The position numbers and the translations under genes are program-made. From Escherichia phage RudolfBernhard_Bas96: a DNA stretch of 64,000 nt. Positions within the stretch are counted from its first letter, which is position 1. Each line of letters begins with the position of its first letter. A model generated the notes under the pieces. It was not told the origin of the DNA. It ran no database searches and saw nothing but the letters and a program-made list of their open reading frames with translations. The DNA is taken from the sequence record PQ850623.1. One strand, 5' to 3'. This document shows positions 2,279 to 21,738 of the stretch, in pieces.

Positions 2279-2989
2279 ATGCAGAAATTATCGGAAGTAT
2301 ACCGTGGCTTGGCACTAAGTACCTTGAAGGGTACTGGTTCAGTTACGGATGACAGACTGGGTATTGAGCCAGATAGTAAGCCGGAGATATTAGCAGCTAT
2401 TAATGAAGGGCTGGTACGACTGCATAGTCGTTTTCCTCTTAAGACAAATAGCTGCATTGTGGAGATGAAGGAAGGGCGTACTGATTATCCTCTTCAATCC
2501 AAGTATGCTTACTCCAAATTTACTAAGCCTACTCTTGAGGTTCAGTATCCTTATATCATGGATGGGTTCATGAAGCCTTTCCAGGATGATGTTATTAAAA
2601 TCTTAAATGTGTTTGATAACTCTGGGAATAGACGTAGACTGAACGACGATTCAGATCCCCGAGCTATTTTCACCCCACGGCCTGATACTATTCAGTGTAT
2701 GCGACCTCGACACTTCGAGGCACTTAACGTAACGTATCAAGCTAAGCACCCAGTACTTACGGGTGATGAAGAACAGGAAGTTGATTTAGCTGATACGCTA
2801 ATGACGGCACTTCATAACTGGGTGGGTTATCGTTACCACACTGGTTTGAATACTCCTGAAGCTAACGCTAAAGCAGCAGAGTATCTGCAAACGTATGAAA
2901 GCATCTGTGGTGAGGTTGTTGATTACGACCTGGCTAATGGAAGTATTTCAATTACCGAAACTAAATTTGAACAACGAGGATGGCGATGA
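2279..2989 (+). CDS. Hypothetical virion/tail-associated protein (N4 gp67-like by position)
   Basis: 236-aa ORF with GAGGAA RBS; synteny between terminase and tailspike genes. Confidence 0.4.
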   Translation: MQKLSEVYRGLALSTLKGTGSVTDDRLGIEPDSKPEILAAINEGLVRLHSRFPLKTNSCIVEMKEGRTDYPLQSKYAYSKFTKPTLEVQYPYIMDGFMKPFQDDVIKILNVFDNSGNRRRLNDDSDPRAIFTPRPDTIQCMRPRHFEALNVTYQAKHPVLTGDEEQEVDLADTLMTALHNWVGYRYHTGLNTPEANAKAAEYLQTYESICGEVVDYDLANGSISITETKFEQRGWR

Positions 2990-5922
2990 ACGCACATACC
3001 CCCTTCGATGCAAAACAGGATTGGACCAATCCTTACTGCCAGAACAGTTCCAATGACCCAATGGTAGATGCACTACTAGGTAATGCTTATCATGTGGTTC
3101 GTACTGTCTACTGTAACTTGGGTAACCTGAAGCTTATCTACGACTTCCTGAACCAGTATGGGATGGTTCTTGGTGTACAGTCTGAAGCAGAACTTAAGGC
3201 GTTAACTACTGAAGCTAAGTATGCACGCATCTATGGTTTCTCCCGTGTAGGTGACCGTCAGGTTACAGACTACCTGTACGTGGAAGGTGATCGTACAGGC
3301 ATTCTACCCAACGACACCACTGCAACAGGCTCATGGATTACTGTTGCTACTTCTGGTGCAGGTGATGGCAGTGGTGGTATTTCCTCTGGGGGAGGTGCAT
3401 ACATTCCTTGGGTATACAGCAACGGTTCTGCTACTGGTGGGGAAACTTCCATTAACGTACCGGATGGGACAGTAGGTGTACCATTCATTATTGTTAATGG
3501 TGATATGCAGTATGTAGGACGAGGCTTTGAGTTTAACGTAGACGATCTGTCCGTAACTCTGGCTCAACCTCTGGAAGAAGGTGATGAAGTAGTATTCCTA
3601 CTGACTGGGGTTCCTGCTGTACCGGACAACCCTAATGTTAATGACTGGATTCAGATTAATTGGTTATATAACAATGGTGTTGCTGTAGGTGGTGAGCAGG
3701 TTATTGCTATTCCATACACTTTCCAGTCTATTCCAGCCGTGTATAAGAATGGGCTTCGTTTGTATAAAGGATTAACCACTGAATCATATACTGCTGACCC
3801 GGATAACCAGCGTATCCTTCTTACTGAGACACTGGCAACCAATGACCGATTGATTGTACAGCTTGGTGGTGAAGCACGGGTATTGGAAGCAGCAGACCAT
3901 ACTCTTCAGGAAGTTGCTCGTGCAGCTAACGTTAAGGATAGTGAGGTAATTCTTAGTACAGATAGTACCCAGTTCCTGAATGACAAGAGGGTTGTTTATT
4001 CTGTTAGTGAACAGAAGGCATATGGTTTGCCTGTATTACCAACAAATGTATACATTCAGTCCGTTAGTGACGGTAAGTTAACATACTCCCCCGGTAACAT
4101 TACGGTTGATTTACTTCCGTTACCAGAATCTGCTACTAGTTTAAAAAATAAATTTGCAGAAGAAAATGGTGCAGGGCTAGTTGGTACAACATCCGGCAGG
4201 ACCGTACAGGAAGAGTTTGACTACCGCAAAACTCAAGCGGAAAAAACAGAGATAAACATACTTGACTACCTTCCGGATAACGTGATCGCGGCGCTAAACG
4301 ATGTTAATGCATCAATGGCTCTAGGAAGCGTAAGGACATACATCGAACAGGCTTTGGCGGTAGCAACGAGCGAGAATATCGGTACTGGGGTTACTTTACG
4401 TTTCCCGGCTGGGTTCTTTTGGCTTGATTCTACTCTTAACCTTCCTAAAAGGACGCGTATTGTTGGAGTCTACCCAGAAACATACTTTATGGCACTCCCC
4501 AACTTTACCGGCACTAACGTAATTGCTGGCTCCACGGGACCAGCTATAGTCGCTATTGATAACTCAGGGCAAGACCCATTTTATATCGAAGGTTTTCAGA
4601 TAAACGCAGATGGTTCCCAGCCGAATGTGGTTGGGCTGCACATTGGCGGCTGCCGTAATTCCGTCGTCCGTCGGATATCTGTATCGGGGACCTTCGATGC
4701 TGCTGTTGTTATCCACCCTAAAAACGCAACATCTGGGGACGTGGAGAACCTGGAATTAAGCCACGTATGGACATTAGGTGGTGGGCTTGTGCTCAGGACT
4801 AATACAGATATCGACCGTGGAAATTTAACAGGTCTGTCATTCCGGGATTGTATGTTTTTCAGCACAATCGACAACAACCCTTCATGGGCGACGTCCGGTA
4901 ACCCATCCATCAGATTCTCATGTCATACTGACAGACAGATTTTTTCATGTACATTCGACCGCGTTGGTTGGGCTAGTCGTGCGACATACGCTATTTACTC
5001 AGAAAGTCTTGCAGGAAATAGCGAGGCAGATGTAAAAGGTTTCCGTGATATCCATTTCTCTGATTTCGCCGGAGAATCTCACAACGCTGACGGCTCGCTA
5101 ACATCAGACTGTACGTATGCCCTACTTACGAAGATGCGGAATAGCACATTTACTAACATCCAACGCTCTGGCGCCGTGACCCGTGGGGGTATCATTATGG
5201 ATGGGTGCGAATATGTGACCTTCAACTCAGTGTCTTTTGCAGATCCCAATATTAGCACTGGAACAACTGCCCCACGGTGCGTATATCAAAACTCTACTAA
5301 TAGATTTAACCGTTTTATCAATTGTGACTTAACAGATGCTACTGGTAGTATGTTTGATTTAGATGGTTGGACCATAGCTAACAGTGTGATGTACTACTTT
5401 AAGGGCCTGTTCTGGGATGACAGTGGGACTAGTATCTGGGAATGTGAACAAATGTCTAGCACTCCTGGCGTTATGTTCGCAAGAAGTACATTAAACCAAA
5501 ATAACGGGTCGGCCTTCCCTCAACAGTCTGGGGTTACAATGCTAACTTCAGGCGACGACCTTCAAGTTACTTTTGCAAGAGACACCACTACTAAAACCTT
5601 TACAATACCTATTACTACATCTTCTGGTGTATTTAATAACCATGACAGGGTGTATGTGGCATTTAGACATCAGTTCCTTAGCTATGGAACCAATACTGTA
5701 GTGAAAATAGGGATTGGAGGTAAGTATGTTACAATCAGTCCTCAATCGGGAACTGATTATTTTGCGGTGGTTAGTAGAGCACGTTCTTTGGCAACATCAT
5801 TTGATATCCAAGTCACTTATAGTGGCGCTTCGGAAGATTGCATTATTCTTATTAGAGATTTAATTGTATCAAATAAAATGCCGTGGCTCCCTAACTTCAC
5901 CAAAGTCTTACTTTGCGATTAA
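2986..5922 (+). CDS. Tailspike/tail fibre protein with N-terminal particle-binding region and C-terminal beta-helix-like region
   Basis: 978 aa; ATGA start/stop overlap with upstream gene at 2986-2989; Gly/Ser/Thr/Asn-rich C-terminal half with repeated N-x-G / S-x-G turns typical of right-handed beta-helix tailspikes. Confidence 0.5.
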   Translation: MNAHTPFDAKQDWTNPYCQNSSNDPMVDALLGNAYHVVRTVYCNLGNLKLIYDFLNQYGMVLGVQSEAELKALTTEAKYARIYGFSRVGDRQVTDYLYVEGDRTGILPNDTTATGSWITVATSGAGDGSGGISSGGGAYIPWVYSNGSATGGETSINVPDGTVGVPFIIVNGDMQYVGRGFEFNVDDLSVTLAQPLEEGDEVVFLLTGVPAVPDNPNVNDWIQINWLYNNGVAVGGEQVIAIPYTFQSIPAVYKNGLRLYKGLTTESYTADPDNQRILLTETLATNDRLIVQLGGEARVLEAADHTLQEVARAANVKDSEVILSTDSTQFLNDKRVVYSVSEQKAYGLPVLPTNVYIQSVSDGKLTYSPGNITVDLLPLPESATSLKNKFAEENGAGLVGTTSGRTVQEEFDYRKTQAEKTEINILDYLPDNVIAALNDVNASMALGSVRTYIEQALAVATSENIGTGVTLRFPAGFFWLDSTLNLPKRTRIVGVYPETYFMALPNFTGTNVIAGSTGPAIVAIDNSGQDPFYIEGFQINADGSQPNVVGLHIGGCRNSVVRRISVSGTFDAAVVIHPKNATSGDVENLELSHVWTLGGGLVLRTNTDIDRGNLTGLSFRDCMFFSTIDNNPSWATSGNPSIRFSCHTDRQIFSCTFDRVGWASRATYAIYSESLAGNSEADVKGFRDIHFSDFAGESHNADGSLTSDCTYALLTKMRNSTFTNIQRSGAVTRGGIIMDGCEYVTFNSVSFADPNISTGTTAPRCVYQNSTNRFNRFINCDLTDATGSMFDLDGWTIANSVMYYFKGLFWDDSGTSIWECEQMSSTPGVMFARSTLNQNNGSAFPQQSGVTMLTSGDDLQVTFARDTTTKTFTIPITTSSGVFNNHDRVYVAFRHQFLSYGTNTVVKIGIGGKYVTISPQSGTDYFAVVSRARSLATSFDIQVTYSGASEDCIILIRDLIVSNKMPWLPNFTKVLLCD

Positions 5923-6000
5923 AACTAAGGCCCAATTATTTAATAAAATGCCCCTCCAATCATGGAGGGGTGGTATTCCTAGAAAAACAAAGAGGTTTAT

Positions 6001-7929
6001 ATGAACGAAATGTTCTCACAAGGTGGTAAAGGTTCAACTGGAATCTTAACCAACAAACAAACAATAGCCCGTCACTTTGGAGTTAAACAATCAGAGGTTG
6101 TTTACTTCTCAGTGGGTGCTCTACTTACTGGTTACAAAGTCATTTATGACAAAGCGTCACAGAGGGCTTACTCATTACCTGCTGATATTGGTTCTGGGGT
6201 TACTGCTGTAAGCCTTAGTCCTGCCGGAGTATTGGTACACTCTGCTGGTAATGTGGACTTAGGTGCACTAGCTGTTGCTCGTGAAGAATATGTAACCTTA
6301 CCTGGCTCATTTGATACCGGTGTAACAGTTAATACTAAGAACGAACTGGTTGTTTTTACTGATGGTAAGTACCGTTGGGATGGTGCATTACCTAAAGAAG
6401 TACCTGCTGGTTCCACCCCCGCATCCACCGGTGGTGTGGTTACTGGCGCCTGGCGCCCTGTGGGGGACTTATCTCTACGGCCAAGCTTGGCAACGGCCAA
6501 TAGTGGGTATCTTGTTGATGACTCAAACATTATGGTGCAGACACCGGCCAGTGGTGTCGTGCGGACGCAGCACCTAAGAAATGCAGACTATATCAGCGTA
6601 AAAGACTTCGGCGCTATTGGTGATGGCGTTACTGATGATTCGGCCTCTTTCAGCGCTGCGATTTCGTCGCTATTAGCTCGGGGGGGTTCAATATACGTGC
6701 CTGCCGGTGTCTATAATGTCAAGAACGCTAATATAGTGGTTAACACGACTGACTTTCACGGGAATAGAATTGGATTTTATGGTGATGGACCGGCGATATC
6801 CGTACTACGTACGGCAACTGCGTCTTCAAGTGATGTGGTTATGTCGGTAACAGCAAACACAGAATCAGCAATTAACTCAGTTATTGCTGGAGTTTCATTC
6901 CATGATATTGGGTTCGAAATACTTAACAACACTGGGACTGTTTTCCGCCTTGTCAACACTGCTTACGCCAAATTTGACAACTGTTATTTCAGAGGTGGGA
7001 GACTTGGATTTGAAAGCGCTGGATCGCTGAGTAGTTCATTCATAAACTGCAAGTTTACAGAGGCGGTTAACTACGGATTTTACGCTCACAACGGCTTCAG
7101 CTATCCAAATCAACTATCATTTTTCCAGTGCGTATTCGCTAGCAACCAAGTGGCTGGAATTTATGCAATTGACCCAGGCGGCCTACGTATTTACGGAGGA
7201 AGCATAGAAGGAAATGGGTTATCAAACACGGACATGACATTTGGTGGTGGCATCGCCATCGATACAAAACCAGGCGCCGCCGGCGTAACAATCCCGTTAG
7301 TGGTATCAGGAACATACTTTGAGTTCAATAAAGGGCTGGCCGACATATATATAGCTCACACGAATAACTTTGCAAACATTTCTTTCTCAGTTGATAGTTG
7401 CAGTTTTGGGCAAGGTGGGGAATTCACTACAGTAGACCGCGTAAAGGTTATTCATAGTACAACGTCTTCGCTTAGGGGTACGGTTTCAAACTGCAACTTC
7501 CATGAGTTATCCGGCTTTGTGCCAACTGCCAGCAACAAGTATATTAACGTCAGTGGTAGTGGCGCTGGTTATCGATCAGTTGTAAACGTTAACAACTATT
7601 ACAACTCAGTAGCCTCTTCCCCAGCAGACCAAACAGTTCGTAACTCTGTTACCTCTGGATTCTCAGAGCCTCGCATAGAGAAGTATACCGCCGTTACTGG
7701 CTCCGGAATAGCAACCGCGACTATAAATTTCAATGCCTTTTCTGCGCCCCCGGCTGTTTCAGTTATTGTATCTGACGGGACACCCGACAGCGTTTTTTCA
7801 ACTAGATTGGTGGCTTTGAGCGCAACAAGCTGTACCATAGAGGTCCTCAAAACAACAACCGCTGGTGGCGCTTGGACTCCAGCTACTTCAGTTGCACTTC
7901 ACGTAACTGCGGTTGGCGCATCAAAATAA
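6001..7929 (+). CDS. Tailspike with pectate-lyase-superfamily (depolymerase-type) beta-helix domain
   Basis: Motif YISVKDFGAIGDGVTDDSASFSAAISSLLARGGSIYVPAGVYNV (~nt 6589-6720) resembles the N-terminal signature of pectate-lyase-fold tailspikes; AGAGG RBS before ATG 6001. Confidence 0.6.
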   Translation: MNEMFSQGGKGSTGILTNKQTIARHFGVKQSEVVYFSVGALLTGYKVIYDKASQRAYSLPADIGSGVTAVSLSPAGVLVHSAGNVDLGALAVAREEYVTLPGSFDTGVTVNTKNELVVFTDGKYRWDGALPKEVPAGSTPASTGGVVTGAWRPVGDLSLRPSLATANSGYLVDDSNIMVQTPASGVVRTQHLRNADYISVKDFGAIGDGVTDDSASFSAAISSLLARGGSIYVPAGVYNVKNANIVVNTTDFHGNRIGFYGDGPAISVLRTATASSSDVVMSVTANTESAINSVIAGVSFHDIGFEILNNTGTVFRLVNTAYAKFDNCYFRGGRLGFESAGSLSSSFINCKFTEAVNYGFYAHNGFSYPNQLSFFQCVFASNQVAGIYAIDPGGLRIYGGSIEGNGLSNTDMTFGGGIAIDTKPGAAGVTIPLVVSGTYFEFNKGLADIYIAHTNNFANISFSVDSCSFGQGGEFTTVDRVKVIHSTTSSLRGTVSNCNFHELSGFVPTASNKYINVSGSGAGYRSVVNVNNYYNSVASSPADQTVRNSVTSGFSEPRIEKYTAVTGSGIATATINFNAFSAPPAVSVIVSDGTPDSVFSTRLVALSATSCTIEVLKTTTAGGAWTPATSVALHVTAVGASK

Positions 7930-12492: not shown

Positions 12493-13713
12493 ATGACTAC
12501 GGAAGCTGCAACCACAGCTTCCGACATTCTCGCAATGTCGGATGATGAGATTCTGAATATGGAAGCCCCAGCAATTATCGCTGAGGAAGATACTTCCACT
12601 CAGAACAACCCAGAAACCAACGGCGTACAGACTCCTGATGAAGAAGTTGACACCCCTGCTGTTGAAGACCTACCAACCGAAGAAACCTCCCCTGAAGCCG
12701 AACCAGATGAAGAAGATTCAGCAAATACTTTAACTTCTGATAAAGTTGATGATAAAGTTGTTGACACAGAAGTTGATAGTAACGGTGAGCCGATTACTAA
12801 AGCTGAACCTTCTACTACTGAACCAGGCCAGGAACAGGAAGAAGAAGGCAAACAGTCTGAAGGTCTGCCTGCTGACTTCAACTATAAGGAAGGTTACGAA
12901 AAGTTGATGGCTCCTTTTAAAGCTAACGGCAAAGTGATTACTCCCCGTTCACCGGAGGAGGCCATTAGCCTGATGCAGATGGGTGCTAACTATACTCGTA
13001 AGATGCAAGAACTAAAGCCTTACCGTAAGGTAATGCTGATGTTACAGAACAACGGTTTAATGGATGAGGATAAACTTTCTTTCCTTATTGACCTGGATAA
13101 AAAGAATCCAGAAGCCATTAAGAAGTTGCTCAAAGACTCTGGTACAGATCCTCTGGACTTTAACCCAGATGAGGAAATTAACTACCAGGGTGGCAATCAC
13201 CGTGTTACCGACACCGAAGCAGATTTTGCAACCGAAATTGACGACTTAAAGTCTACTCAAGAAGGACAAGCTACATTAGGTGTTATCGGCTCGACATGGG
13301 ATGCTGCCAGTAAAGATGCTCTTTACCAGAATCGTGGCCTACTCCAGACTATTCACGAACAACGTGAGAATGGTATTTATGACACCATTGCAAACGAAGT
13401 GAACCGTCTTCAGATGTTAGGCCAGATTCCGGTAGGTACTCCGTTCATTCAGGCTTATAACCACGTCGGTAACCTCCTTGCACAACAAGGGGCATTTAAC
13501 CGAGTGGCTAAGCCAGAATCGGTACAAGCAGTCAAGCCAGTGGTTCAGCCGGTAGTGCGTGTAGCACAACCTAAGCAGACTCTGGCTAACAGTGAGCAAG
13601 CTAAAGCAGCTTCCCTTAATCGGGCTGCTACACGTAAAGCAACACCTATTGTAAACCCACTCGCTATGAGTGATGAAGATTTCGCTAAACTCCCAGTACC
13701 GGGTAGTCTTTAA
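12493..13713 (+). CDS. Scaffolding-like protein with highly acidic Pro/Glu/Thr-rich N-terminal region
   Basis: 406 aa directly upstream of the major capsid gene; acidic low-complexity N-terminus; GGAGA RBS. Confidence 0.4.
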   Translation: MTTEAATTASDILAMSDDEILNMEAPAIIAEEDTSTQNNPETNGVQTPDEEVDTPAVEDLPTEETSPEAEPDEEDSANTLTSDKVDDKVVDTEVDSNGEPITKAEPSTTEPGQEQEEEGKQSEGLPADFNYKEGYEKLMAPFKANGKVITPRSPEEAISLMQMGANYTRKMQELKPYRKVMLMLQNNGLMDEDKLSFLIDLDKKNPEAIKKLLKDSGTDPLDFNPDEEINYQGGNHRVTDTEADFATEIDDLKSTQEGQATLGVIGSTWDAASKDALYQNRGLLQTIHEQRENGIYDTIANEVNRLQMLGQIPVGTPFIQAYNHVGNLLAQQGAFNRVAKPESVQAVKPVVQPVVRVAQPKQTLANSEQAKAASLNRAATRKATPIVNPLAMSDEDFAKLPVPGSL

Positions 13714-13729
13714 ACAGGAATAAGATGAT

Positions 13730-14932
13730 ATGTTAAATTATAACGCCCCAATTGACGGTCAGAAATCTAGCATTGATGGTGCTGGTTCCGACCAGATGAA
13801 TACCTATTACTGGCTGAAGAAGGCTATTATTCAGTCTCGTAAAGACCAGTACTTCATGCCTCTGGCTAACACCATTAACATGCCGAAGAACTACGGTAAA
13901 ACTGTTAAGGTGTATGAGTACGTTCCACTGCTTGACGATAAGAACATTAACGACCAGGGTATTGATGCTAATGGCGCTACCATCGTTAATGGTAACCTGT
14001 ACGGTTCTTCCAGAGACGTTGGTAACATCACTTCTAAACTGCCTCTGCTGACAGAGAACGGTGGTCGTGTTAACCGTGTGGGCTTTACTCGTCTGTCTCG
14101 TGAAGGTTCCATCCATAAGTTCGGTTTCTTCTACGAATTTACTCAAGAGTCCTTGGACTTTGATTCTGATGATCAACTGAAAGAACACCTGTCTCGTGAA
14201 CTGATGAACGGTGCTGTACAGTTGACTGAAGCTGTTCTCCAGAAAGACCTGTTGGCTGCTGCTGGTACTGTATTGTATGCAGGTGCTGCTACCTCCGATG
14301 CCACCATCACTGGTGAAGGTTCTACCCCGTCCGTAGTTTCTTATAAGAACCTGATGCGTCTTGACCAGATTCTTACTGAGAACCGTACTCCGACTCAGAC
14401 TACTATCATCACTGGTTCTAAACTTACCGATACCAAAGTACTTGGTGGTACTCGTGTAATGTACGTTGGTTCTGAACTGGTTCCAGAACTGAAAGCGATG
14501 AAAGACCTGTTCGGTAACAAAGCATTCATCGAGGTTCAGCACTATGCTGATGCCGGTACTCTGATGAATGGTGAGATTGGTTGTATCGACAAGTTCCGTA
14601 TTATTCAGGTTCCTGAGATGCTGCATTGGGCAGGTGCTGGTGCTCAGGTTACTACTAACCCGGGTTATCGCTCTTCTATGGTTAGTGGGCAAGAACACTA
14701 CGACGTATTCCCGATGCTGGTAGTTGGTGATGACTCCTTCTCTACCATTGGCTTCCAGACTGATGGTAAGTCTGTTAAGTTCTCCATCATGACTAAGATG
14801 CCTGGTCGAGAAACTGCTGACCGTAATGACCCGTATGGTGAGACTGGCTTTAGTTCCATCAAGTGGTACTACGGTATTCTGGTTAAACGTCCAGAACGTC
14901 TGGCTCTGATTAAGACTGTTGCTCCTCTGTAA
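13730..14932 (+). CDS. Major capsid protein (N4 gp56-like)
   Basis: 400 aa; position after scaffold; followed by a strong hairpin terminator, typical of the highly expressed capsid gene. Confidence 0.7.
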
Positions 14933-14999: not shown

Positions 15000-15641
15000 A
15001 TGAACATGAGCATTAACGATAAACCGACCACTGACGTAGAACTGGACGTACAGGGCAACGAAGATACCGTTAACGATATTGCAATGCCTAGCGAACTTGA
15101 AGTTCTTAAGCAACGTGCAACGTTGATGAATATTAAGTTCTCTAACAACATCTCCGTTGAGAAGCTCCGTGAGAAGATTGAAGCTGCACAAGCAAAAGAC
15201 GAACCAGAAGTAAAAGAATCTGCTGTTAACCCTTTGGGTGAAAAACAGGAAGCTGGTGTTAAGAAAATGACCCTGGGTCAGAAGATTCGTGCAGAACAGA
15301 CTCGACTGATTCGTGTACGTATCCAGAACCTTGATCCCAAGAAGAAAGACCTGCCGGGTGAGATTATCACCGTAGCTAACGAATATATGGGTACTGTACG
15401 TAAGTTTGTTCCATTCGGTGAAGTCACCGACAATGGTTATCATATTCCGTACTGTATTTACGAGTTCCTTAAAGAGCGTAAGTTCATCAACATTACGACT
15501 CGTAAAGGTAAGAATGGCTTACCGGATATCCGTGCAACAGAAGCACGAGAGTTCTCCATTGAAGTATTGCCTCCGCTGACTGAAGCAGAATTGGCTCAAC
15601 TGGCTCAAGCACAGATTGCTGCTGGTAGCCTGAACGATTAA
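15000..15641 (+). CDS. Hypothetical virion-associated protein
   Basis: 213-aa ORF with ACAGGAAA RBS; structural-module synteny. Confidence 0.4.
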   Translation: MNMSINDKPTTDVELDVQGNEDTVNDIAMPSELEVLKQRATLMNIKFSNNISVEKLREKIEAAQAKDEPEVKESAVNPLGEKQEAGVKKMTLGQKIRAEQTRLIRVRIQNLDPKKKDLPGEIITVANEYMGTVRKFVPFGEVTDNGYHIPYCIYEFLKERKFINITTRKGKNGLPDIRATEAREFSIEVLPPLTEAELAQLAQAQIAAGSLND

Positions 15642-15717
15642 CGTATAAGCTACAGTTCAACACGGCTCACTGGGGTAACTCCGTGGGCCGTTTCTTTTTG
15701 AACCAAGAGGAATGATT

Positions 15718-16554
15718 ATGTCTTGTTCTGCTGAGGTAGAAGCTAACCGACTCCTAGAAGAGTTAACTAAGGGTGATGACTTTACCCTCCCTGACATTGA
15801 TATGTCTGGTCCTGAATGGGATATCCCTGGTGGTGATAATTCCCCAATCTTTGATGCTATTACTAAAGTAACAAATGAATCACTTACTACCCGTGAAGTA
15901 GGTGGTAGTGGTACGTTTGATGCATTAATGGAATCTGCACACAATCACCTTAAAGCTGAGTTTAAAGCTAATCGTATTACTGGTGGTGAATATACCAAAG
16001 CATACATTGCTATGATGGAATCGTGCATGAGTAATGCTGTTCAGTTTTTACTTGGTCGTGACCAAGCATACTGGGCTGCTGCTATGGCACAGATTCAGGC
16101 AGTTACTGCACGTGTTCAATTGGCAACCTCTAAAGCACAGTTTGTACTGGCTAAGATTCAGGCACTGTCTGCTAAGAGTGAATATGCTCTCACTAAGATG
16201 AAGATTGCTACCGAGTCTGAAACATACTGTGCTGCATTGTTTAATGCTGACCAGATGTTACCTCAACAGCTTAAACTGATTACTGAGCAGACCGAAGCAC
16301 AACGTGCACAGACACTGGATACCCGAAGTGATGGGGCTACTGTTACTGGTTCCGTAGGTAAGCAGAAAGAGTTGTACTCTCAACAGATTACTTCTTATCA
16401 ACGTGATGCAGAAGTTAAAGCATCTAAGTTGTTTACCGATGCATGGATTACACAGAAGACTATTGATGAAGGCTTGAACCCACCTAATGGTTTCACTAAC
16501 GCAAGTATTGATACCATTCTGACCAAGCTGAAGTCTAACAACGGGCTGAACTAA
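15718..16554 (+). CDS. Virion structural protein (N4 gp54-like by position)
   Basis: ORF with AGAGGAA RBS 7 nt before ATG 15718; track start 15712 lies too close to the RBS. Confidence 0.4.
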
Positions 16555-16555
16555 T

Positions 16556-19210
16556 ATGGGCTTATTCAGTGGGAAGACCAAAGTATACGTAGCATCCTCT
16601 GTCTATAACATGGCAGGGGATATACACAAACGTCCAAACTATATGAAGACTGTAGTCATCGGTAAGATTGTTGCTGATACAGGATTCACTATGGCAGACA
16701 CTATCTCTGATAGTTATCTGAATGGACCGGGTATTCGTATGCGATTGTTCTCCAGCTGGAGTAAGAATCACTATGATTCAGAAGTTGGTATGGCTGGTTC
16801 TTCATTAGGTGTACTGGCTAAGATTGACCCTACTGTTATAGAGGGTCAAATTACTCCACCTGCTGGTGAATCAGTCTATGTTCAGGCAGCAGAGATTGGC
16901 TTTGCTGACTTTGAGCAATGGTGTGACCAATATCTTTATGAGAATGCCCCAAGTCGAATCATGGAACGATTCGACGTAGACATTGATGAAGATACCAATG
17001 AAATTACTATGACCTCCCTGGATGGGGGTTCTACCATTACATTCACACCTACTAACTTTGAACCAGGTGCTTTGTATCTCTATGCTGATTACACATTCTA
17101 TAAGTCTCCATCTACCAATCCACCGGTAGTAGGACCGACTACTGTCTATGATAGTGAAGGCGACTTACCGTCTACTTTGTTATGGACCACTATCTCAAGC
17201 GATACTACAGCTAATACAACCAATCTTACTAAGACTATACAGACCCATTCTGTTTACTCTGATGGTAGACCAGATGAAGACAATACTGTCACTGAACCAA
17301 GCGTAGATAACTGGAACTCTTACGTTAAGGTTTATCGTAGAGGGTTTACTGAGAAACCCGATGATGTGACTGTAGTTGTATCTGACAGGGTAATGACTCA
17401 TAAAAAGTTTGGTGAGGTTCAGTCCAGTACTACTGTAACTACTAATGTAGTTGATATAGGTGGTGGTGTTACTCGGACTGACACAATCACCACAACTACA
17501 GAGACACTGGTTCGTAAGTATTCATCCCAGACTACCCGTACTGATACAGAGATGACTGCTGTTGGTACACCTAAGATGCTTATCTATAAGCAGAACTCAG
17601 GCAACGTTGCACTCGATTCACTGTTTGAAACTGAGGCTACTGATAACCGATTCTATCCATTCATTCCAATCAGGAATGATAAACAATGGGTAGAGAATGA
17701 TCCAATCTACCCCCACTGTAAGAAGGCACTCTATAAAGCTACTGGTGGTAAGCTTGATAAAGTAGTAACCGAGCTTAAGAAGAACGACGACATAGGTGAT
17801 ATCCAGTACATCTATGGCACATTCGGTGTATCTCTTAATACTCCAGAAGATACTGCTAAGGAATACATCTACCGTTTCTTTCAGATGGCTACTGAAGCAT
17901 TCCCACCTGACCCAACCTACCCTACATTGGAAGCAGTGATTGCAGGTTATCAGGCAGCAAATGATGCAGTCGATGCATACGTAGAATGGTGGAACAGGCA
18001 GGAAGGTCAGATTGTTGGAACACCTCCTCCCTTGCCAGAATATCCTGTCATACCTAAGCGAGAGTTTAGGGTACATAGTAATAAGCAGTACAAGTATGAC
18101 ATGACTATTGGTTGGAACTATGTGTCTGAAACTGCTCATTCTGGTGAAGCATGGTCTGGTGCTAAGCAAGGACAACTTCGAGCCAGATATGCAGGGGATA
18201 TAACTCTTACTCGTAAGAACATACGTACTGCTAGTAACTCTGGTTCGACTAAGAAGCTGGAAGTTACCACTACGTTTTATTCCATGCAGGAGTATGAGTT
18301 GCTTTGGCAGGACGGTAACAACACCTACCGTAAACTTAGAGTACTGGGTCTGAACCATAACAATAGGGTATATAAAAATAAGTCAGTGAGTATTGATGTT
18401 GCTGAAGCAATGGGCGATGCAGAAGAGAGTGGGTTCATTATCCCACTACACACTAACATCTACCGTTCAATGTCACTGACTCGTAGTACCCAACTGTCTA
18501 CTGCCTGTTCCTACTTAGTTATGAACTCGTATAAGAAGGTTAAACAGAAGTGGTATCAAACCTCTGCCTTTAAGATTGTAGTTGTTGTGGTTGCTGTCGT
18601 TGTATCCGTATTCACTATGGGTACTGGTGGTGCAGGTATTCTTGGGGCATATGGTGCAGTTGGTGCATCGCTAGGTTTTGTTGGATTGGCTGCTGTAATA
18701 GTGGGTGCTGTAGCAAACGCCATTGCTGCAATGATTCTGATATCTATTATTACTAAAGTATCCACTTCACTGTTTGGTGATAAGCTAGGTTTTATCATTG
18801 CTGCTGTTGCTTCAATGGTAGCCATGAACGTTGGTACTGCTATGTCTACTGGTACATCCTTATCTACCTTAGCTAGTGAAATGATGAATGCTCAGAACAT
18901 CATGCAACTTACCAGTTCAGTAGGTAACGGCATTAGCCAGTATATTAATGCATCTACGGCTGCTACTATTCAGAAAGCAGAGAGTGTAATGCAGCAGTAC
19001 AATACTGATATGATGGCAATCAATAAGCAGTATGAAGAAATGTTTGGTACTGCTGGGCAGGGTGTAATTGACCCCATGCAATTCGTGTCAATGGAGTCGA
19101 TGGATTCTTTCCTCTCACGTACTCTCATGACTGGTTCGGATATAGCTGACATGTCTTTAAACATGGTTGGCAGCTACTCTGATATGACTCTTAATACTGA
19201 CCTTGTTTAA
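16556..19210 (+). CDS. Large internal virion/ejection protein with strongly hydrophobic C-terminal membrane segments
   Basis: 884 aa; ~100-aa stretch VVVVVAVVVSVFTMGTGGAGILGAYGAVGASLGFVGLAAVIVGAVANAIAAMILISII... (~nt 18570-18850) predicts several TM helices. Confidence 0.45.
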   Translation: MGLFSGKTKVYVASSVYNMAGDIHKRPNYMKTVVIGKIVADTGFTMADTISDSYLNGPGIRMRLFSSWSKNHYDSEVGMAGSSLGVLAKIDPTVIEGQITPPAGESVYVQAAEIGFADFEQWCDQYLYENAPSRIMERFDVDIDEDTNEITMTSLDGGSTITFTPTNFEPGALYLYADYTFYKSPSTNPPVVGPTTVYDSEGDLPSTLLWTTISSDTTANTTNLTKTIQTHSVYSDGRPDEDNTVTEPSVDNWNSYVKVYRRGFTEKPDDVTVVVSDRVMTHKKFGEVQSSTTVTTNVVDIGGGVTRTDTITTTTETLVRKYSSQTTRTDTEMTAVGTPKMLIYKQNSGNVALDSLFETEATDNRFYPFIPIRNDKQWVENDPIYPHCKKALYKATGGKLDKVVTELKKNDDIGDIQYIYGTFGVSLNTPEDTAKEYIYRFFQMATEAFPPDPTYPTLEAVIAGYQAANDAVDAYVEWWNRQEGQIVGTPPPLPEYPVIPKREFRVHSNKQYKYDMTIGWNYVSETAHSGEAWSGAKQGQLRARYAGDITLTRKNIRTASNSGSTKKLEVTTTFYSMQEYELLWQDGNNTYRKLRVLGLNHNNRVYKNKSVSIDVAEAMGDAEESGFIIPLHTNIYRSMSLTRSTQLSTACSYLVMNSYKKVKQKWYQTSAFKIVVVVVAVVVSVFTMGTGGAGILGAYGAVGASLGFVGLAAVIVGAVANAIAAMILISIITKVSTSLFGDKLGFIIAAVASMVAMNVGTAMSTGTSLSTLASEMMNAQNIMQLTSSVGNGISQYINASTAATIQKAESVMQQYNTDMMAINKQYEEMFGTAGQGVIDPMQFVSMESMDSFLSRTLMTGSDIADMSLNMVGSYSDMTLNTDLV

Positions 19211-19223
19211 CAGGAGAATCCCC

Positions 19224-19667
19224 ATGGATTTGTCATTCTTAACAGGCAACCAAACCCCACAGCCAGCTGCTATGTCTTGGATGTCTAATAACAATCAAAA
19301 CTTTAATACCCCAGCTATGAACTACAATCCGGGTGCAACTATTGGTATGAATGCAGGTACAGGGTTAGCTACCCCTGCATCTTTCTTATCTGGTTCAGCT
19401 AATCAGTTGGGTATGAACGTACCTACCTTTCAACTAGGACTTGGTGCACTTGGTTCCTTAGCTGGTATCTATAGTGGTTTCCAGGCCAACAAACTAGCCA
19501 AAGACCAGTTGAACTTCACTAAGAGTGTTACTAACACTAACCTGAATAATCAGATTAAGTCTTATAACACTGCACTGGAAGACCGTGCTCGTAGTCGTGC
19601 TACAGCAGAGAACCGTGACCAGTCTTCGGCTGATGCTTATATTGCAGCTAATAAACTAACCCGTTAA
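19224..19667 (+). CDS. Small virion protein (N4 gp52-like by position)
   Basis: Start at ATG 19224 with AGGAGA RBS; Asn/Gln/Gly-rich. Confidence 0.4.
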   Translation: MDLSFLTGNQTPQPAAMSWMSNNNQNFNTPAMNYNPGATIGMNAGTGLATPASFLSGSANQLGMNVPTFQLGLGALGSLAGIYSGFQANKLAKDQLNFTKSVTNTNLNNQIKSYNTALEDRARSRATAENRDQSSADAYIAANKLTR

Positions 19668-19679
19668 TAGGAAACCATC

Positions 19680-21644
19680 ATGGCTCAGATAACGTGGAGA
19701 AATGTTGATGCACCTAACTTCTCTGGAGTTGGTGACAGCATTCGCACATTTGGCAACATGATTGGTAACGCCACCTCCGGCTTAAGTGATGCACTGGGTA
19801 ATTTCCAGAACGCTGCCAAGCAGGAGGCTGGCAATGCCGTCATGATGAATGCTATGCAGTACCAAGACCCTAATGAGTACCGTAATGCTTTGGCATCTGG
19901 TGCACTGTTTCAGGGAGTTGACCCTTCACTGGTAAACCAGCGTACCCTCCAAAACCTGGATGAGCGAGCAGGTACACTACTGACTCAACAAGGTCAGCAG
20001 GGAACCAATGACTACAATTCTTATGTCTTTGACCGTTTACGGAATACTAATACTGCATTAGATAATGCCTCCCCTGCTATCCGTTTACTGTCTGAGGCAT
20101 ACCAGTCTGGTGACCAGAATCGTATCAATACTGCGTTGGAACAGACACGTGATACATTGTCTGCACTCCCTGCCGACCAACAGCTTGAGCTGATGACCAG
20201 TCTCCAAGGTCAGGGTGGTCAGGCTATTAATCAGGCACAGAACCGTTTTGATTTGGGTGTTGCTCAACGTAATGATGCTGATAGTCAGGCAGCTATGGGT
20301 GTAATGTCACAGATTACTCGCGGTGCTGAGAACCCCAATGATGCCCGTCTGTTAGCAGAAGCATATAGCAAGAACCTGTCTCCGGTTGCACAGGCACGTT
20401 TGCAGGAAATGCTTGCACGAGCATATCCGGGTGTTTACGGTAATAATGTTGGTGCTACGTCTGCTCCAGGTACTGCTGGTACACGTCAGGGTTCCCCTTA
20501 CGATGTTACTTACCAGTTTGCTGGTACATCTACTCCTATTACTCAAATGAGTATTGGTGATGTAATTAAACACCAGGATGGTATGAAGTCGAAGCAGGGT
20601 GCTTCTCCTGTTGGTGCATTCCAAATTAACCAAGCTACTCTGCTAGACTTCGCTCCCAAAGTTCTTGGTTCAGATTGGCAAAGCCAGCCTCTTTCTCCTG
20701 AGAACCAGGATAAGATTGGTAAGGCTATCTTCGAGGCCCGTAAGAACGGTAACCTTAAAGATACCTGGGCTGCTCTGCCTAACTCTACCCCAGGTGCTTA
20801 TAAGGATATGACTTGGGAACAGATTAAACCTGTTATTGCCCAAGCAGAAGTGGGGGCTGACCCTCTTGCTATGGTTCAGAATAATCAAGGTAATCAGGCA
20901 GTATCTACTCTGACTCAGGGTATGATTGGTACTCGTTCTATGCAGGATAATACCGGTAGTCTTAATACTGATTTCCTTGGTACTGTCACTGATAATACCC
21001 CGGTAGGTGAGATTGCTAACCGTCTGTTGGAGGGTGATTTTAAAGGTGCTGACCGTAACTGGGTACTGAACCGACTGAACGATATTTCTCAACGTGGGAA
21101 CATGTCACCAGCTATGGCTGCTGCTGTTATGCAACGTGCACAGACTGGCGTACCAGAAGGTTATATTAGCCGTGCTATTGATGCAGTTAACCCATTCATT
21201 ACTAATGAAGCCGGTAATGGTATGCGTCTTAATGACCGTCAGGTAGAACAGTTAATTGAGGGTGTGAAACGGGGAGAGCCACTGGAAGGTAGCGTTCGTA
21301 ACCTGGGTCGTGCTCAAGCTATGCAGAATATTCAGGCAGCACAGACTGCATATGATGCTGCTGTAGCTGCACTGGCAAATACCCAGAATAAGATTAACAC
21401 CGGACAAAGTGGTCTTACTGCACTGTTACCTGCACGTCAGGAGGCTGTTACTAAAGCTGCTGCAATGCTCCAAGCTGCACTGGCACAAGTACAAGCTGAC
21501 CCGGCTAACCTGGCTCCAAGAGGTTTCCAGTCACAGACTAGTGTGGACAGGGCACGAGCCAAGGAAGATGAAGAACGTGCTGCACGATACTTACGTCAGG
21601 CACAAGGATTGCCTGAGTATATGCAACCAAGACAAAATCGGTAA
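19680..21644 (+). CDS. Virion protein (N4 gp51-like by position), Gln/Asn/Ala-rich
   Basis: 654-aa ORF with TAGGAAA RBS, immediately upstream of the vRNAP gene. Confidence 0.4.
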   Translation: MAQITWRNVDAPNFSGVGDSIRTFGNMIGNATSGLSDALGNFQNAAKQEAGNAVMMNAMQYQDPNEYRNALASGALFQGVDPSLVNQRTLQNLDERAGTLLTQQGQQGTNDYNSYVFDRLRNTNTALDNASPAIRLLSEAYQSGDQNRINTALEQTRDTLSALPADQQLELMTSLQGQGGQAINQAQNRFDLGVAQRNDADSQAAMGVMSQITRGAENPNDARLLAEAYSKNLSPVAQARLQEMLARAYPGVYGNNVGATSAPGTAGTRQGSPYDVTYQFAGTSTPITQMSIGDVIKHQDGMKSKQGASPVGAFQINQATLLDFAPKVLGSDWQSQPLSPENQDKIGKAIFEARKNGNLKDTWAALPNSTPGAYKDMTWEQIKPVIAQAEVGADPLAMVQNNQGNQAVSTLTQGMIGTRSMQDNTGSLNTDFLGTVTDNTPVGEIANRLLEGDFKGADRNWVLNRLNDISQRGNMSPAMAAAVMQRAQTGVPEGYISRAIDAVNPFITNEAGNGMRLNDRQVEQLIEGVKRGEPLEGSVRNLGRAQAMQNIQAAQTAYDAAVAALANTQNKINTGQSGLTALLPARQEAVTKAAAMLQAALAQVQADPANLAPRGFQSQTSVDRARAKEDEERAARYLRQAQGLPEYMQPRQNR

Positions 21645-21653
21645 TACTAATAA

Positions 21654-21677
21654 AAGCCCTACGGGGCTTTTTTCTTT
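21654..21677 (+). terminator. Rho-independent terminator between gp51-like gene and the vRNAP gene
   Basis: AGCCC-TACG-GGGCT hairpin followed by TTTTTT (21668-21673). Confidence 0.55.
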
Positions 21678-21738
21678 AACTGGCTTACTGTAGAGTAAGT
21701 TACCTATATACGATATAAGTTTGAACAGGAAACATGCT

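What the first reader, a model, noticed from the sequence alone, without database searches (positions are those of the whole stretch)
16556..19210. Internal virion protein with ~100-aa polytopic hydrophobic stretch
The C-terminal quarter (~nt 18570-18850) is almost entirely Val/Ala/Gly/Ile and predicts several TM helices inside an otherwise soluble 884-aa structural-module protein. This fits an ejection protein that inserts into the host envelope to form a channel for the genome and the giant vRNAP.
Basis: partly seen in the sequence, partly recalled or inferred. Interest (0 to 1): 0.35.

Follow-up and report, generated by a model that had tools for sequence, protein, structure and literature searches.

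The report
N4-type phage tail plug gene
The 884-residue protein is this N4-like phage's copy of gp53, the single-copy plug that seals the tail tube, and its greasy stretch matches the "hydrophobic knot" that corks the tube in the solved N4 structure, so it is real but already explained.

Summary
**Observation: confirmed.** ORF 16556-19210 (+) encodes 884 aa. Residues ~671-768 (nt 18566-18859) form the only strongly hydrophobic block. It is far beyond chance and conserved across the family.

**Interpretation: only partly right.**
- The window is a G7C-like (Gamaleyavirus) member of the N4 family.
- The protein aligns end to end with N4 gp53 (PDB 9YFT, E=0, 54% identity). It sits between the tail-tube gene (gp54) and the ejection cassette gp52-gp51-vRNAP.
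- A 2026 cryo-EM study shows N4 gp53 is the monomeric tail plug, mostly outside the tube. N4 residues 29-56 and 670-716 (here 29-56 and 674-720) weave into a "hydrophobic knot" that corks the 12-mer tube. The last ~160 residues are disordered in the lumen.
- That study demonstrated channel formation for gp51 and gp52. It reports no such test of gp53.
- So this is a virion protein, but a tail-tip plug rather than an internal ejection or channel protein.

**Still open**
- Whether the released hydrophobic segment later touches the outer membrane.
- What holds the plug in this phage, which lacks homologues of the N4 sheath proteins gp64/gp65 that anchor the plug in N4.

Low interest; already known.

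The parts
16556..19210 (+). CDS of the gp53-type tail plug protein (884 aa plus stop)
   Evidence: ORF. Aligns 1-883 to N4 Gp53, PDB 9YFT chain FA (E=0, 1054 bits). 54% identity by tblastn. PHROG 2220 full length. 98% identical to PhAPEC5_57, annotated "similar to N4 gp53".
16640..16723 (+). aa 29-56, the N-terminal segment equivalent to the first half of the N4 hydrophobic knot
   Evidence: Numbering is identical to N4 29-56 in the alignment. The knot is described in PMC13434306. The first 40 residues are among the most conserved in the family. AF2 predicts helices 29-40 and 46-55.
17186..17557 (+). aa 211-334, four long beta-strands, taken to be the N4-type "beta-feather" protrusion
   Evidence: AF2 strands 211-234, 241-266, 272-300 and 306-334 at high pLDDT. 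[quoted passage not shown] Many 728-840 aa family members lack profile positions ~190-335. Assigning this stretch to the feather is an inference.
18575..18715 (+). aa 674-720, first half of the hydrophobic block, equivalent to N4 residues 670-716 that form the knot corking the tail tube
   Evidence: There is a +4 offset in the alignment. It is a 47-aa run free of charged or strongly polar residues. Mean family hydropathy is 2.02. G703, G707 and A713 are invariant; G694, G697 and G717 are nearly invariant.
18716..18859 (+). aa 721-768, second half of the hydrophobic block. The N4 model stops at residue 724 (query ~728), so this half is mostly unresolved in the N4 map
   Evidence: N721 is invariant and the FGDK-like turn is conserved. 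The N4 model covers residues 9-724 only.
18860..19207 (+). aa 769-884, polar helical C-terminal tail, presumed to lie in the tail lumen
   Evidence: [quoted passage not shown] AF2 gives low-confidence helices. E847, R855, T856 and G860 are invariant.
15718..16554 (+). gp54-type tail tube gene. Its product forms the 12-mer tube that the plug seals. Its stop lies 1 nt before the plug's ATG
   Evidence: PDB matches: Moo19 tail protein 9D80_C (E 9e-150) and N4 Gp54 in 9YFT/9YF4/9LC0 (E 2e-124). 67% identical to N4 gp54. Sequence at the junction. The ORF list starts at 15712, but the alignments start at residue 3.
19224..19667 (+). gp52-type ejection protein gene. In N4 its product lies in the tail lumen above the plug and forms channels
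   Evidence: PDB 9YF4 "16.5 kDa protein" (E 1e-43). 58% identical to N4 gp52. AGGAG followed by ATG at 19224. Bilayer data for N4 gp52.
19680..21644 (+). gp51-type ejection protein gene
   Evidence: 49% identical to N4 gp51. PHROG 6126, virion structural protein. Terminator-like hairpin at 21652-21671.
21721..32538 (+). Giant virion RNA polymerase gene (gp50 type). Coordinates are the ORF extent; an in-frame Met lies 7 codons in, and which start codon is used was not determined
   Evidence: 3605-aa ORF. Annotated vRNAP in PhAPEC5 and G7C.

Best explanation
The gene encodes the phage's tail plug, the orthologue of coliphage N4 gp53.

**Inferred by homology to the solved N4 tail-gating complex**
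- One copy caps the distal end of the 12-subunit tail tube made by the gene immediately upstream.
- A large beta-rich body and a long beta "feather" sit outside the tube.
- The N-terminal segment 29-56 and the first half of the hydrophobic block (674-720) fold together into a compact knot of short helices. This knot is pushed into the tube mouth like a cork and keeps DNA and the luminal ejection protein gp52 in.
- The rest of the block and the polar C-terminal ~160 residues run up into the lumen.

**Proposed in the N4 and DEV papers, not shown**
- On receptor engagement the plug is displaced sideways.
- The C-terminus is pulled out, which may act as a "ripcord" for gp52.
- gp52, gp51 and the vRNAP then leave and build the trans-envelope channel.

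**Shown here:** homology, synteny, and conservation of the block.

**Inferred:** the location, stoichiometry and cork role in this particular phage.
For: - **Homology.** End-to-end alignment to N4 Gp53 in PDB 9YFT (E=0), 54% identity. The C-terminal part, including the hydrophobic block, also aligns to DEV gp74 in 9ZE4 (E 1e-16).
- **Fold.** The AF2 model has a confident body (residues 7-667). Its only significant PDB fold match is the DEV tail-gating complex chain 9ZE4_M (E 1e-15, probability 1.0).
- **Synteny.** The order gp54 tube, gp53, gp52, gp51, gp50 is the same as in N4, G7C and PhAPEC5. There is a 1-nt gap between the tube stop and the plug start.
- **Published structure and role.** PMC13434306 and PMC12892993.
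- **Virion presence in relatives.** MS data.
- **Conservation pattern.** The most conserved parts of the family are residues 1-40 and 601-760, which are the knot segments and their flanks. The block is present in every one of 260 relatives at a fixed distance from the C-terminus, with or without the feather. This fits a contact with the conserved tube rather than with variable host envelopes.
- **Helix length.** Conserved glycines (G694, G697, G703, G707, G717) break 689-720 into short helices.
Against: - No structure exists for a G7C-type plug. Moo19 showed only weak, unmodelled density at the tube tip.
- AF2 gives the whole 668-884 region low confidence and draws long helices rather than a knot.
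- The N4 anchor for the plug, gp65 domains D9-D10, has no homologue in this window, so the gating partner must differ.
- Only about half of the hydrophobic block (674-720) is accounted for by the N4 knot. Residues 721-768 are unresolved in N4, so their role is open.
gp53 does not.
Confidence: 0.85

Rival explanations
1. Dual-use segment (compatible with the plug role). The hydrophobic block corks the tube in the free virion. After receptor-triggered unplugging it inserts into the outer membrane. There it would anchor the tail tip or prime insertion of the gp52 channel, as the lumen-blocking hydrophobic L loops of phi29 tail-knob protein gp9 are reported to do.
For: - Two segments have membrane-insertion energies near or below zero.
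- The block is ~98 aa, about twice what the N4 knot uses. Residues 721-768 and the C-terminal tail are unresolved in N4.
- An invariant Asn (N721) sits inside the most hydrophobic segment, and there are many small-xxx-small motifs. From general knowledge, both are common in self-associating membrane helices.
- There is a precedent for a lumen-plugging, pore-forming segment: phi29 gp9, as cited in PMC6542822.
- The N4 authors suggest the plug C-terminus acts as a ripcord for gp52.
Against: - In N4 the plug is still on the tail in emptied particles and appears to reseal the tube. Those particles emptied in vitro, however.
- Channel activity is already accounted for by gp52 and gp51.
- There is a single copy per virion, so it cannot form an oligomeric pore by itself.
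- No fold or sequence relation to phi29 gp9 was found.
- No experiment on gp53 and membranes was found in the papers read.
Confidence: 0.2
2. An internal virion (ejection) protein that leaves the particle and uses several TM helices to build the envelope-spanning channel for the genome and the vRNAP.
For: - The TM-like block.
- The gene lies next to the ejection cassette.
- Relatives are annotated as membrane or TM-helix proteins.
Against: - The orthologue in N4 is modelled at the tail tip, mostly outside the tube. It is a monomer and is retained in empty particles.
- The N4 study assigns the outer-membrane channel and the periplasmic tunnel to gp52 and gp51, and proposes that gp51 and the vRNAP N-terminal domain form the inner-membrane part.
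- One copy cannot line a ~35 A channel.
Confidence: 0.05
3. Assembly anchor. The hydrophobic block tethers newly made gp53 to the inner membrane of the infected cell, or needs a chaperone, and is buried only when the tail tube closes on it.
For: - A ~98-aa hydrophobic block cannot stay exposed in the cytoplasm (inference).
- The 1-nt gap between the gp54 stop and the gp53 start is compatible with translational coupling to the tail-tube gene, which would suit co-assembly.
Against: No data were found either way. This would add to the plug role rather than replace it. The knot with residues 29-56 could form within the one molecule.
Confidence: 0.05

Closest known systems
Coliphage N4 gp53 tail plug (PDB 9YFT; Bellis et al., Nat Commun 2026, PMC13434306)
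   Same: - Same length (884 vs 885 aa), collinear over the full length, 54% identity.
- Same gene position between gp54 and gp52.
- Both knot segments, the feather-length beta region and the C-terminal tail are conserved.
   Different: - The genus differs: Gamaleyavirus rather than Enquatrovirus.
- This window has no homologue of the sheath proteins gp64 and gp65. In N4, gp65 domains D9-D10 hold the plug.
- The tail carries G7C-type tailspikes instead.
- How the plug is retained and released is therefore unknown here.
Pseudomonas phage DEV gp74 tail plug (PDB 9ZE4; PMC12892993)
   Same: - It is the only significant solved-structure fold match.
- The C-terminal region, including the hydrophobic block, aligns.
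[quoted passage not shown]
   Different: - DEV gp74 is 740 aa and lacks the beta-feather.
- About 12% identity in the structural alignment.
- It is held by the gp56-gp55-gp54 receptor-binding fibre.
Shigella phage Moo19 gp70 ("similar to N4 gp53", 96 kDa)
   Same: - Same subfamily, with G7C-like tailspikes and no sheath.
- Found in purified virions by MS.
- Its tail tube is the closest solved relative of the tube encoded here.
   Different: The plug density was too weak to model, so there is no structural information on the plug itself. Sequence identity to the protein here was not measured.
phi29 tail-knob gp9 hydrophobic L loop (functional analogy only)
   Same: gp9 carries a hydrophobic pore-forming loop for breaching the host membrane. 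That the loops also block the tube lumen in the mature virion (Xu et al., Nature 2016) is from my own knowledge.
   Different: - No sequence or fold relation.
- It is a hexameric tube protein rather than a monomeric cap.
- Its host is Gram-positive.
Schitovirus ejection proteins gp52, gp51 and gp50 (DEV gp73, gp72, gp71)
   Same: They are encoded immediately downstream. They are hydrophobic or detergent-dependent and virion-borne.
   Different: - They sit inside the tail lumen or capsid and are lost on ejection.
- N4 gp52 and gp51 have demonstrated channel activity.
- gp53 stays on the emptied particle, and no channel data for gp53 appear in the papers read.

Membership tests
N4 gp53-type tail plug of Schitoviridae | Full-length sequence homology to N4 gp53 or DEV gp74 | tested here: met
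   phmmer against PDB: 9YFT_FA with E=0 over 1-883; 9ZE4_M with E 1e-16. tblastn gives 54% identity. PHROG 2220 full length.
N4 gp53-type tail plug of Schitoviridae | [quoted passage not shown] | tested here: met
   Window order is gp54 (15718-16554), gp53, gp52 (19224-19667), gp51, gp50. The same order holds in N4, G7C and PhAPEC5.
N4 gp53-type tail plug of Schitoviridae | Bipartite hydrophobic knot segments (N4 29-56 plus 670-716) | tested here: met
   Both segments align without gaps. 674-720 has mean family hydropathy 2.02 with invariant Gly and Ala positions. The knotted fold itself was not reproduced by AF2.
N4 gp53-type tail plug of Schitoviridae | Fold of the globular body shared with a solved plug | tested here: met
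   Foldseek top hit is 9ZE4_M, DEV tail-gating complex: E 1e-15, probability 1.0, TM 0.50 on the target. 9YFT is newer than the fold library, so it could not be compared by structure.
N4 gp53-type tail plug of Schitoviridae | Single copy sealing the distal end of the 12-mer tail tube in the virion | not testable with these tools
   Needs cryo-EM or proteomics of this phage. Supported for N4 and DEV, and by MS only for Moo19.
N4-style tail-gating complex (plug held by sheath protein gp65) | Presence of the gp64/gp65 sheath heterodimer whose D9-D10 domains bind the plug | tested here: not met
   tblastn of N4 gp64 and gp65 against the 64-kb window gives no hit at E<=1e-3. gp66 matches only its first 72 aa. 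G7C has no gp64 or gp65 genes.
Podovirus ejection (internal virion) proteins that form the trans-envelope channel | Hydrophobic or TM-like segments | tested here: met
Podovirus ejection (internal virion) proteins that form the trans-envelope channel | Stored inside the capsid or tail lumen and lost from emptied particles | not testable with these tools
   The literature on the N4 orthologue argues against this. Most of gp53 is outside the tube, and it is present in both full and empty particles.
Podovirus ejection (internal virion) proteins that form the trans-envelope channel | Channel activity in membranes | not testable with these tools
   Shown for N4 gp52 and gp51. No data on gp53 were found.
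phi29 gp9-type pore-forming tube loop | Homology to the tail-knob tube protein | tested here: not met
   No phi29 gp9 among the PDB fold matches. No Pfam hit. The resemblance is functional only.

The most novel reading that the evidence does not exclude
The conserved ~98-aa hydrophobic block may be a two-state element. It is a soluble-fold cork in the free virion. After receptor-triggered unplugging it becomes a membrane-inserted anchor or primer that starts outer-membrane insertion of gp52. In sheath-less G7C-type phages the plug would then be held and released by a so far unidentified partner, such as the gp66-like or gp63.1-like tailspike branch.
Probability: 0.15. Interest if true: 0.5.

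Novelty: already known. Interest (0 to 1): 0.15.

Why it matters
**For annotation.** Many database records call this protein \"hypothetical\", \"membrane protein\" or \"TM-helix protein\". It can be renamed \"tail plug protein (N4 gp53 family)\". Its TM-like stretch should not be read as evidence for an ejection or channel protein.

**For biology.**
- The family is large: 2418 clusters at 50% identity in the profile search.
- The hydrophobic block is its most constant feature.
- G7C-type phages lack the N4 sheath that holds the plug. They are therefore a natural test case for how plug release is coupled to receptor binding.

Nothing here changes current understanding.

Tried and rejected
- **Pfam.** No family for gp53, gp54, gp52, gp51 or gp55. 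PHROG 2220 carries no function.
- **Pore-forming toxin resemblance.** Foldseek PDB hits after DEV gp74 were aerolysin, epsilon-toxin, CDTb, perforin and secretin-type beta proteins. E-values were 5e-4 to 0.1, most probabilities were below 0.2 (a few partial matches reached 0.77-0.84), and TM-scores on the query were below 0.1. They reflect the long beta-hairpins of the feather. I rejected them as evidence for a beta-pore-forming function.
- **ssRNA-phage maturation proteins.** BFVD hits at probability of about 0.6 or lower, rejected likewise. All confident BFVD hits are uncharacterised podovirus proteins, several from known N4-like phages (pSb-1, Bp4, VCO139).
- **AF2 on the C-terminal region.** It did not give a confident model of 668-884 or reproduce the knot. 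The knot assignment therefore rests on sequence alignment to the published N4 model.
- **Direct structural comparison with 9YFT.** Impossible, because the fold library ends on 2026-04-08.
- **TM prediction.** No dedicated predictor was available. I used Kyte-Doolittle and Hessa-scale sums with shuffles instead.
- **gp52 start.** I considered a start at TTG 19203 overlapping the gp53 end. I rejected it in favour of ATG 19224, which has an AGGAG in front and agrees with the intergenic gap annotated in PhAPEC5 and G7C.
- **Minus-strand ORFs under the gene** (for example 17618-18358 and 18556-18825). I treated them as shadows of the coding frame. All homology is on the + strand.
Full report
**1. 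What is there**

The window is a G7C-like (Gamaleyavirus, Schitoviridae) phage genome. The first 25 kb are 94-95% identical at the DNA level to phages F22, E20, G7C, PhAPEC5 and PhAPEC7. The protein in question is 98% identical to PhAPEC5_57, annotated "similar to gp53 from phage N4".

ORF 16556-19210 (+) encodes 884 aa. The local gene order is:

| Gene | Product | Window coordinates |
|---|---|---|
| gp56 | major capsid protein | 13730-14932 |
| gp55 | unknown | 15000-15641 |
| gp54 | tail tube | about 15718-16554 |
| gp53 | this ORF | 16556-19210 |
| gp52 | ejection protein | 19224-19667 |
| gp51 | ejection protein | 19680-21644 |
| gp50 | 3605-aa virion RNA polymerase | 21721-32538 |

All are on the + strand. 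The tube gene's stop codon is 1 nt from the gp53 ATG. gp53's stop is followed by AGGAG and the gp52 ATG. A terminator-like hairpin follows gp51.

**2.

- Hydropathy identifies one strongly hydrophobic block, aa ~671-768 (nt 18566-18859), and nothing comparable elsewhere.
- It is far outside chance. The best 99-aa mean hydropathy is 1.66, against 0.42 +/- 0.14 (maximum 1.17) in 2000 shuffles. A 47-aa run has no charged or strongly polar residue, against a shuffle maximum of 36.
- On the Hessa membrane-insertion scale, two 19-mers (674-692 and 714-732) are near or below zero and a third (744-762) is marginal. Software would call several TM helices, as some database annotations of relatives already do.
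- The block is conserved in position and character in 46 aligned homologues down to 33% identity. G703, G707, A713 and N721 are invariant.
- In all 260 family proteins retrieved, the block is always 117-145 residues from the C-terminus.
- Together with residues 1-40 and 601-672, it is the most conserved part of the protein.

**3. What it is**

*Sequence homology*
- The protein aligns end to end (1-883) with N4 Gp53, chain FA of PDB 9YFT (E=0).
- Its C-terminal third, including the hydrophobic block, aligns with the "N4 gp53-like protein" of phage DEV in PDB 9ZE4 (E 1e-16).
- tblastn with the N4 proteins gives these identities against the window:

| N4 protein | Identity |
|---|---|
| gp53 | 54% |
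| gp54 | 67% |
| gp52 | 58% |
| gp51 | 49% |
| gp67 | 52% |

*Predicted structure*
- An AlphaFold2 model built on the 46-sequence alignment is confident for residues 7-667.
- It shows a beta-rich body and four ~25-30-residue strands (211-334), which I take to be the "feather".
- It is low-confidence and helical for 668-884.
- Its only significant solved-structure match is the DEV tail-gating complex chain 9ZE4_M (E 1e-15, probability 1.0). The fold library predates the release of 9YFT.

*Published structure (PMC13434306)*
- N4 gp53 is the tail plug: a single copy closes the gp54 dodecamer, giving a 12:6:1 mismatch with the sheath.
- Most of it lies outside the tube.
[quoted passage not shown] - The plug is present on both full and emptied particles.

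With the +4 offset in this part of the alignment, the N4 knot corresponds to residues 29-56 and 674-720 here.

*Support from relatives*
- DEV gp74 is the homologous plug. It lacks the feather and is held by a different receptor-binding fibre.
- Moo19, a sheath-less relative with G7C-type tailspikes, carries its gp53 homologue in purified virions. It shows weak unmodelled density at the tube tip.

**4. How it most likely works**

By homology, one copy of this protein caps the tail tube. The N-terminal segment and the first half of the hydrophobic block fold together into a greasy cork inside the tube mouth. This retains the DNA and the luminal copies of gp52. The rest of the block and the polar C-terminal tail extend up the lumen.

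Receptor engagement displaces the plug sideways. The N4 authors propose that withdrawal of its C-terminus acts as a ripcord for gp52. After that, gp52, gp51 and the vRNAP build the channel.

Basis for each step:
- Shown here: homology, synteny and the conservation pattern.
- Inferred: the location and the cork role in this particular phage.
- Model only, even for N4: the release steps.

**5.

- Right: it is a structural-module virion protein with a conserved TM-like block.
- Wrong, on present evidence: it is neither "internal" nor an ejection or channel protein.
  - The channel activities were measured for gp52 and gp51 in planar bilayers.
  - The plug is a monomer that stays with the emptied particle.
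  - In the solved state the hydrophobic residues are buried in a knot of short helices, not in membrane-spanning helices.

**6. What remains open**

(a) Only about half of the block is explained by the N4 knot. Residues 721-768, with the invariant N721, and the conserved C-terminal tail (E847, R855, T856, G860) are unresolved.

(b) A later membrane contact of the released segment cannot be excluded. There is a functional precedent in the hydrophobic pore-forming L loop of phi29 gp9 (Xu et al. 2016, from my own knowledge). I put this at roughly 0.15-0.2.

(c) This phage has no homologue of N4 gp64 or gp65; G7C also lacks both genes. In N4, gp65's C-terminal domains anchor the plug. Here the tail carries a 980-aa gp66-like protein, which shares only the first 72 aa with N4 gp66, and a 642-aa tailspike with Tail_spike_N and pectate-lyase-like domains. 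What holds and releases the plug in G7C-type phages is therefore unknown.

**7. Family size and variants**

A profile search of 1.84 billion cluster representatives finds 2418 clusters at E<=1e-3 and 1116 at E<=1e-30. Many are 728-840 aa and lack profile positions ~190-335, the feather, as in DEV. They keep the hydrophobic block. The confident hits in the viral predicted-structure library are all uncharacterised podovirus proteins, several of them from known N4-like phages.

**8. Verdict**

The feature is real and well conserved, but it is a close homologue of a protein whose structure and role were published in 2026. Novelty: already known. Interest: low (0.15). The most useful outputs are a corrected annotation (tail plug, not membrane or ejection protein) and the pointer to the missing plug anchor in sheath-less relatives.

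Noticed in passing
window 2980-7929 (and the whole window for the negative result): N4 sheath genes gp64 and gp65 have no homologue in the 64-kb window. Instead there is a 980-aa gp66-like protein matching N4 gp66 only in its first 72 aa, and a 642-aa tailspike with Tail_spike_N and pectate-lyase-like domains. In N4, gp65 both binds the receptor NfrA and anchors the plug, so the partner that gates the plug here is unknown.
   Followed up: partly
relatives Bp4 (KJ135004.2), Uz-1 (OP312987.1) and pSb-1 (NC_023589.1); equivalent to window 16556-19210: In these three records the gp53 gene is annotated as two ORFs and matches in two pieces. BFVD holds fragments of 653 and 246 aa for pSb-1 and 441 aa for Bp4. 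The fragment lengths suggest the breaks lie at different positions, so these are probably frameshift sequencing errors or pseudogenes rather than a programmed event. I did not check this.
   Followed up: no
window 17186-17557 (aa 211-334): The long four-stranded beta "feather" is an optional insertion. Many family members of 728-840 aa lack it, as DEV gp74 does. Its function is not stated in the papers read. Weak Foldseek hits to aerolysin-type toxins are not significant.
   Followed up: partly
window 18716-19207 (aa 721-884): There is an invariant Asn (N721) in the middle of the most hydrophobic segment, and invariant E847, R855, T856 and G860 in the C-terminal tail. This region is unresolved in the N4 map, so its strong conservation has no structural explanation yet.
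   Followed up: no
window 19203-19224 and 15712-15718: The mechanical ORF starts are probably too early. gp52 most likely starts at ATG 19224, after an AGGAG, not at TTG 19203. gp54 most likely starts at ATG 15718, because PDB alignments begin at residue 3.
   Followed up: partly
window 12493-13713: The gp57 homologue (406 aa) is labelled "tail length tape measure protein" in the RefSeq records of N4 and G7C. That is an odd name for a short-tailed phage. It has no Pfam hit.
   Followed up: no
window ~32000-32600: GC skew changes sign right after the end of the vRNAP gene, from positive up to ~32 kb to negative afterwards. This is consistent with a switch of coding strand there.
   Followed up: no
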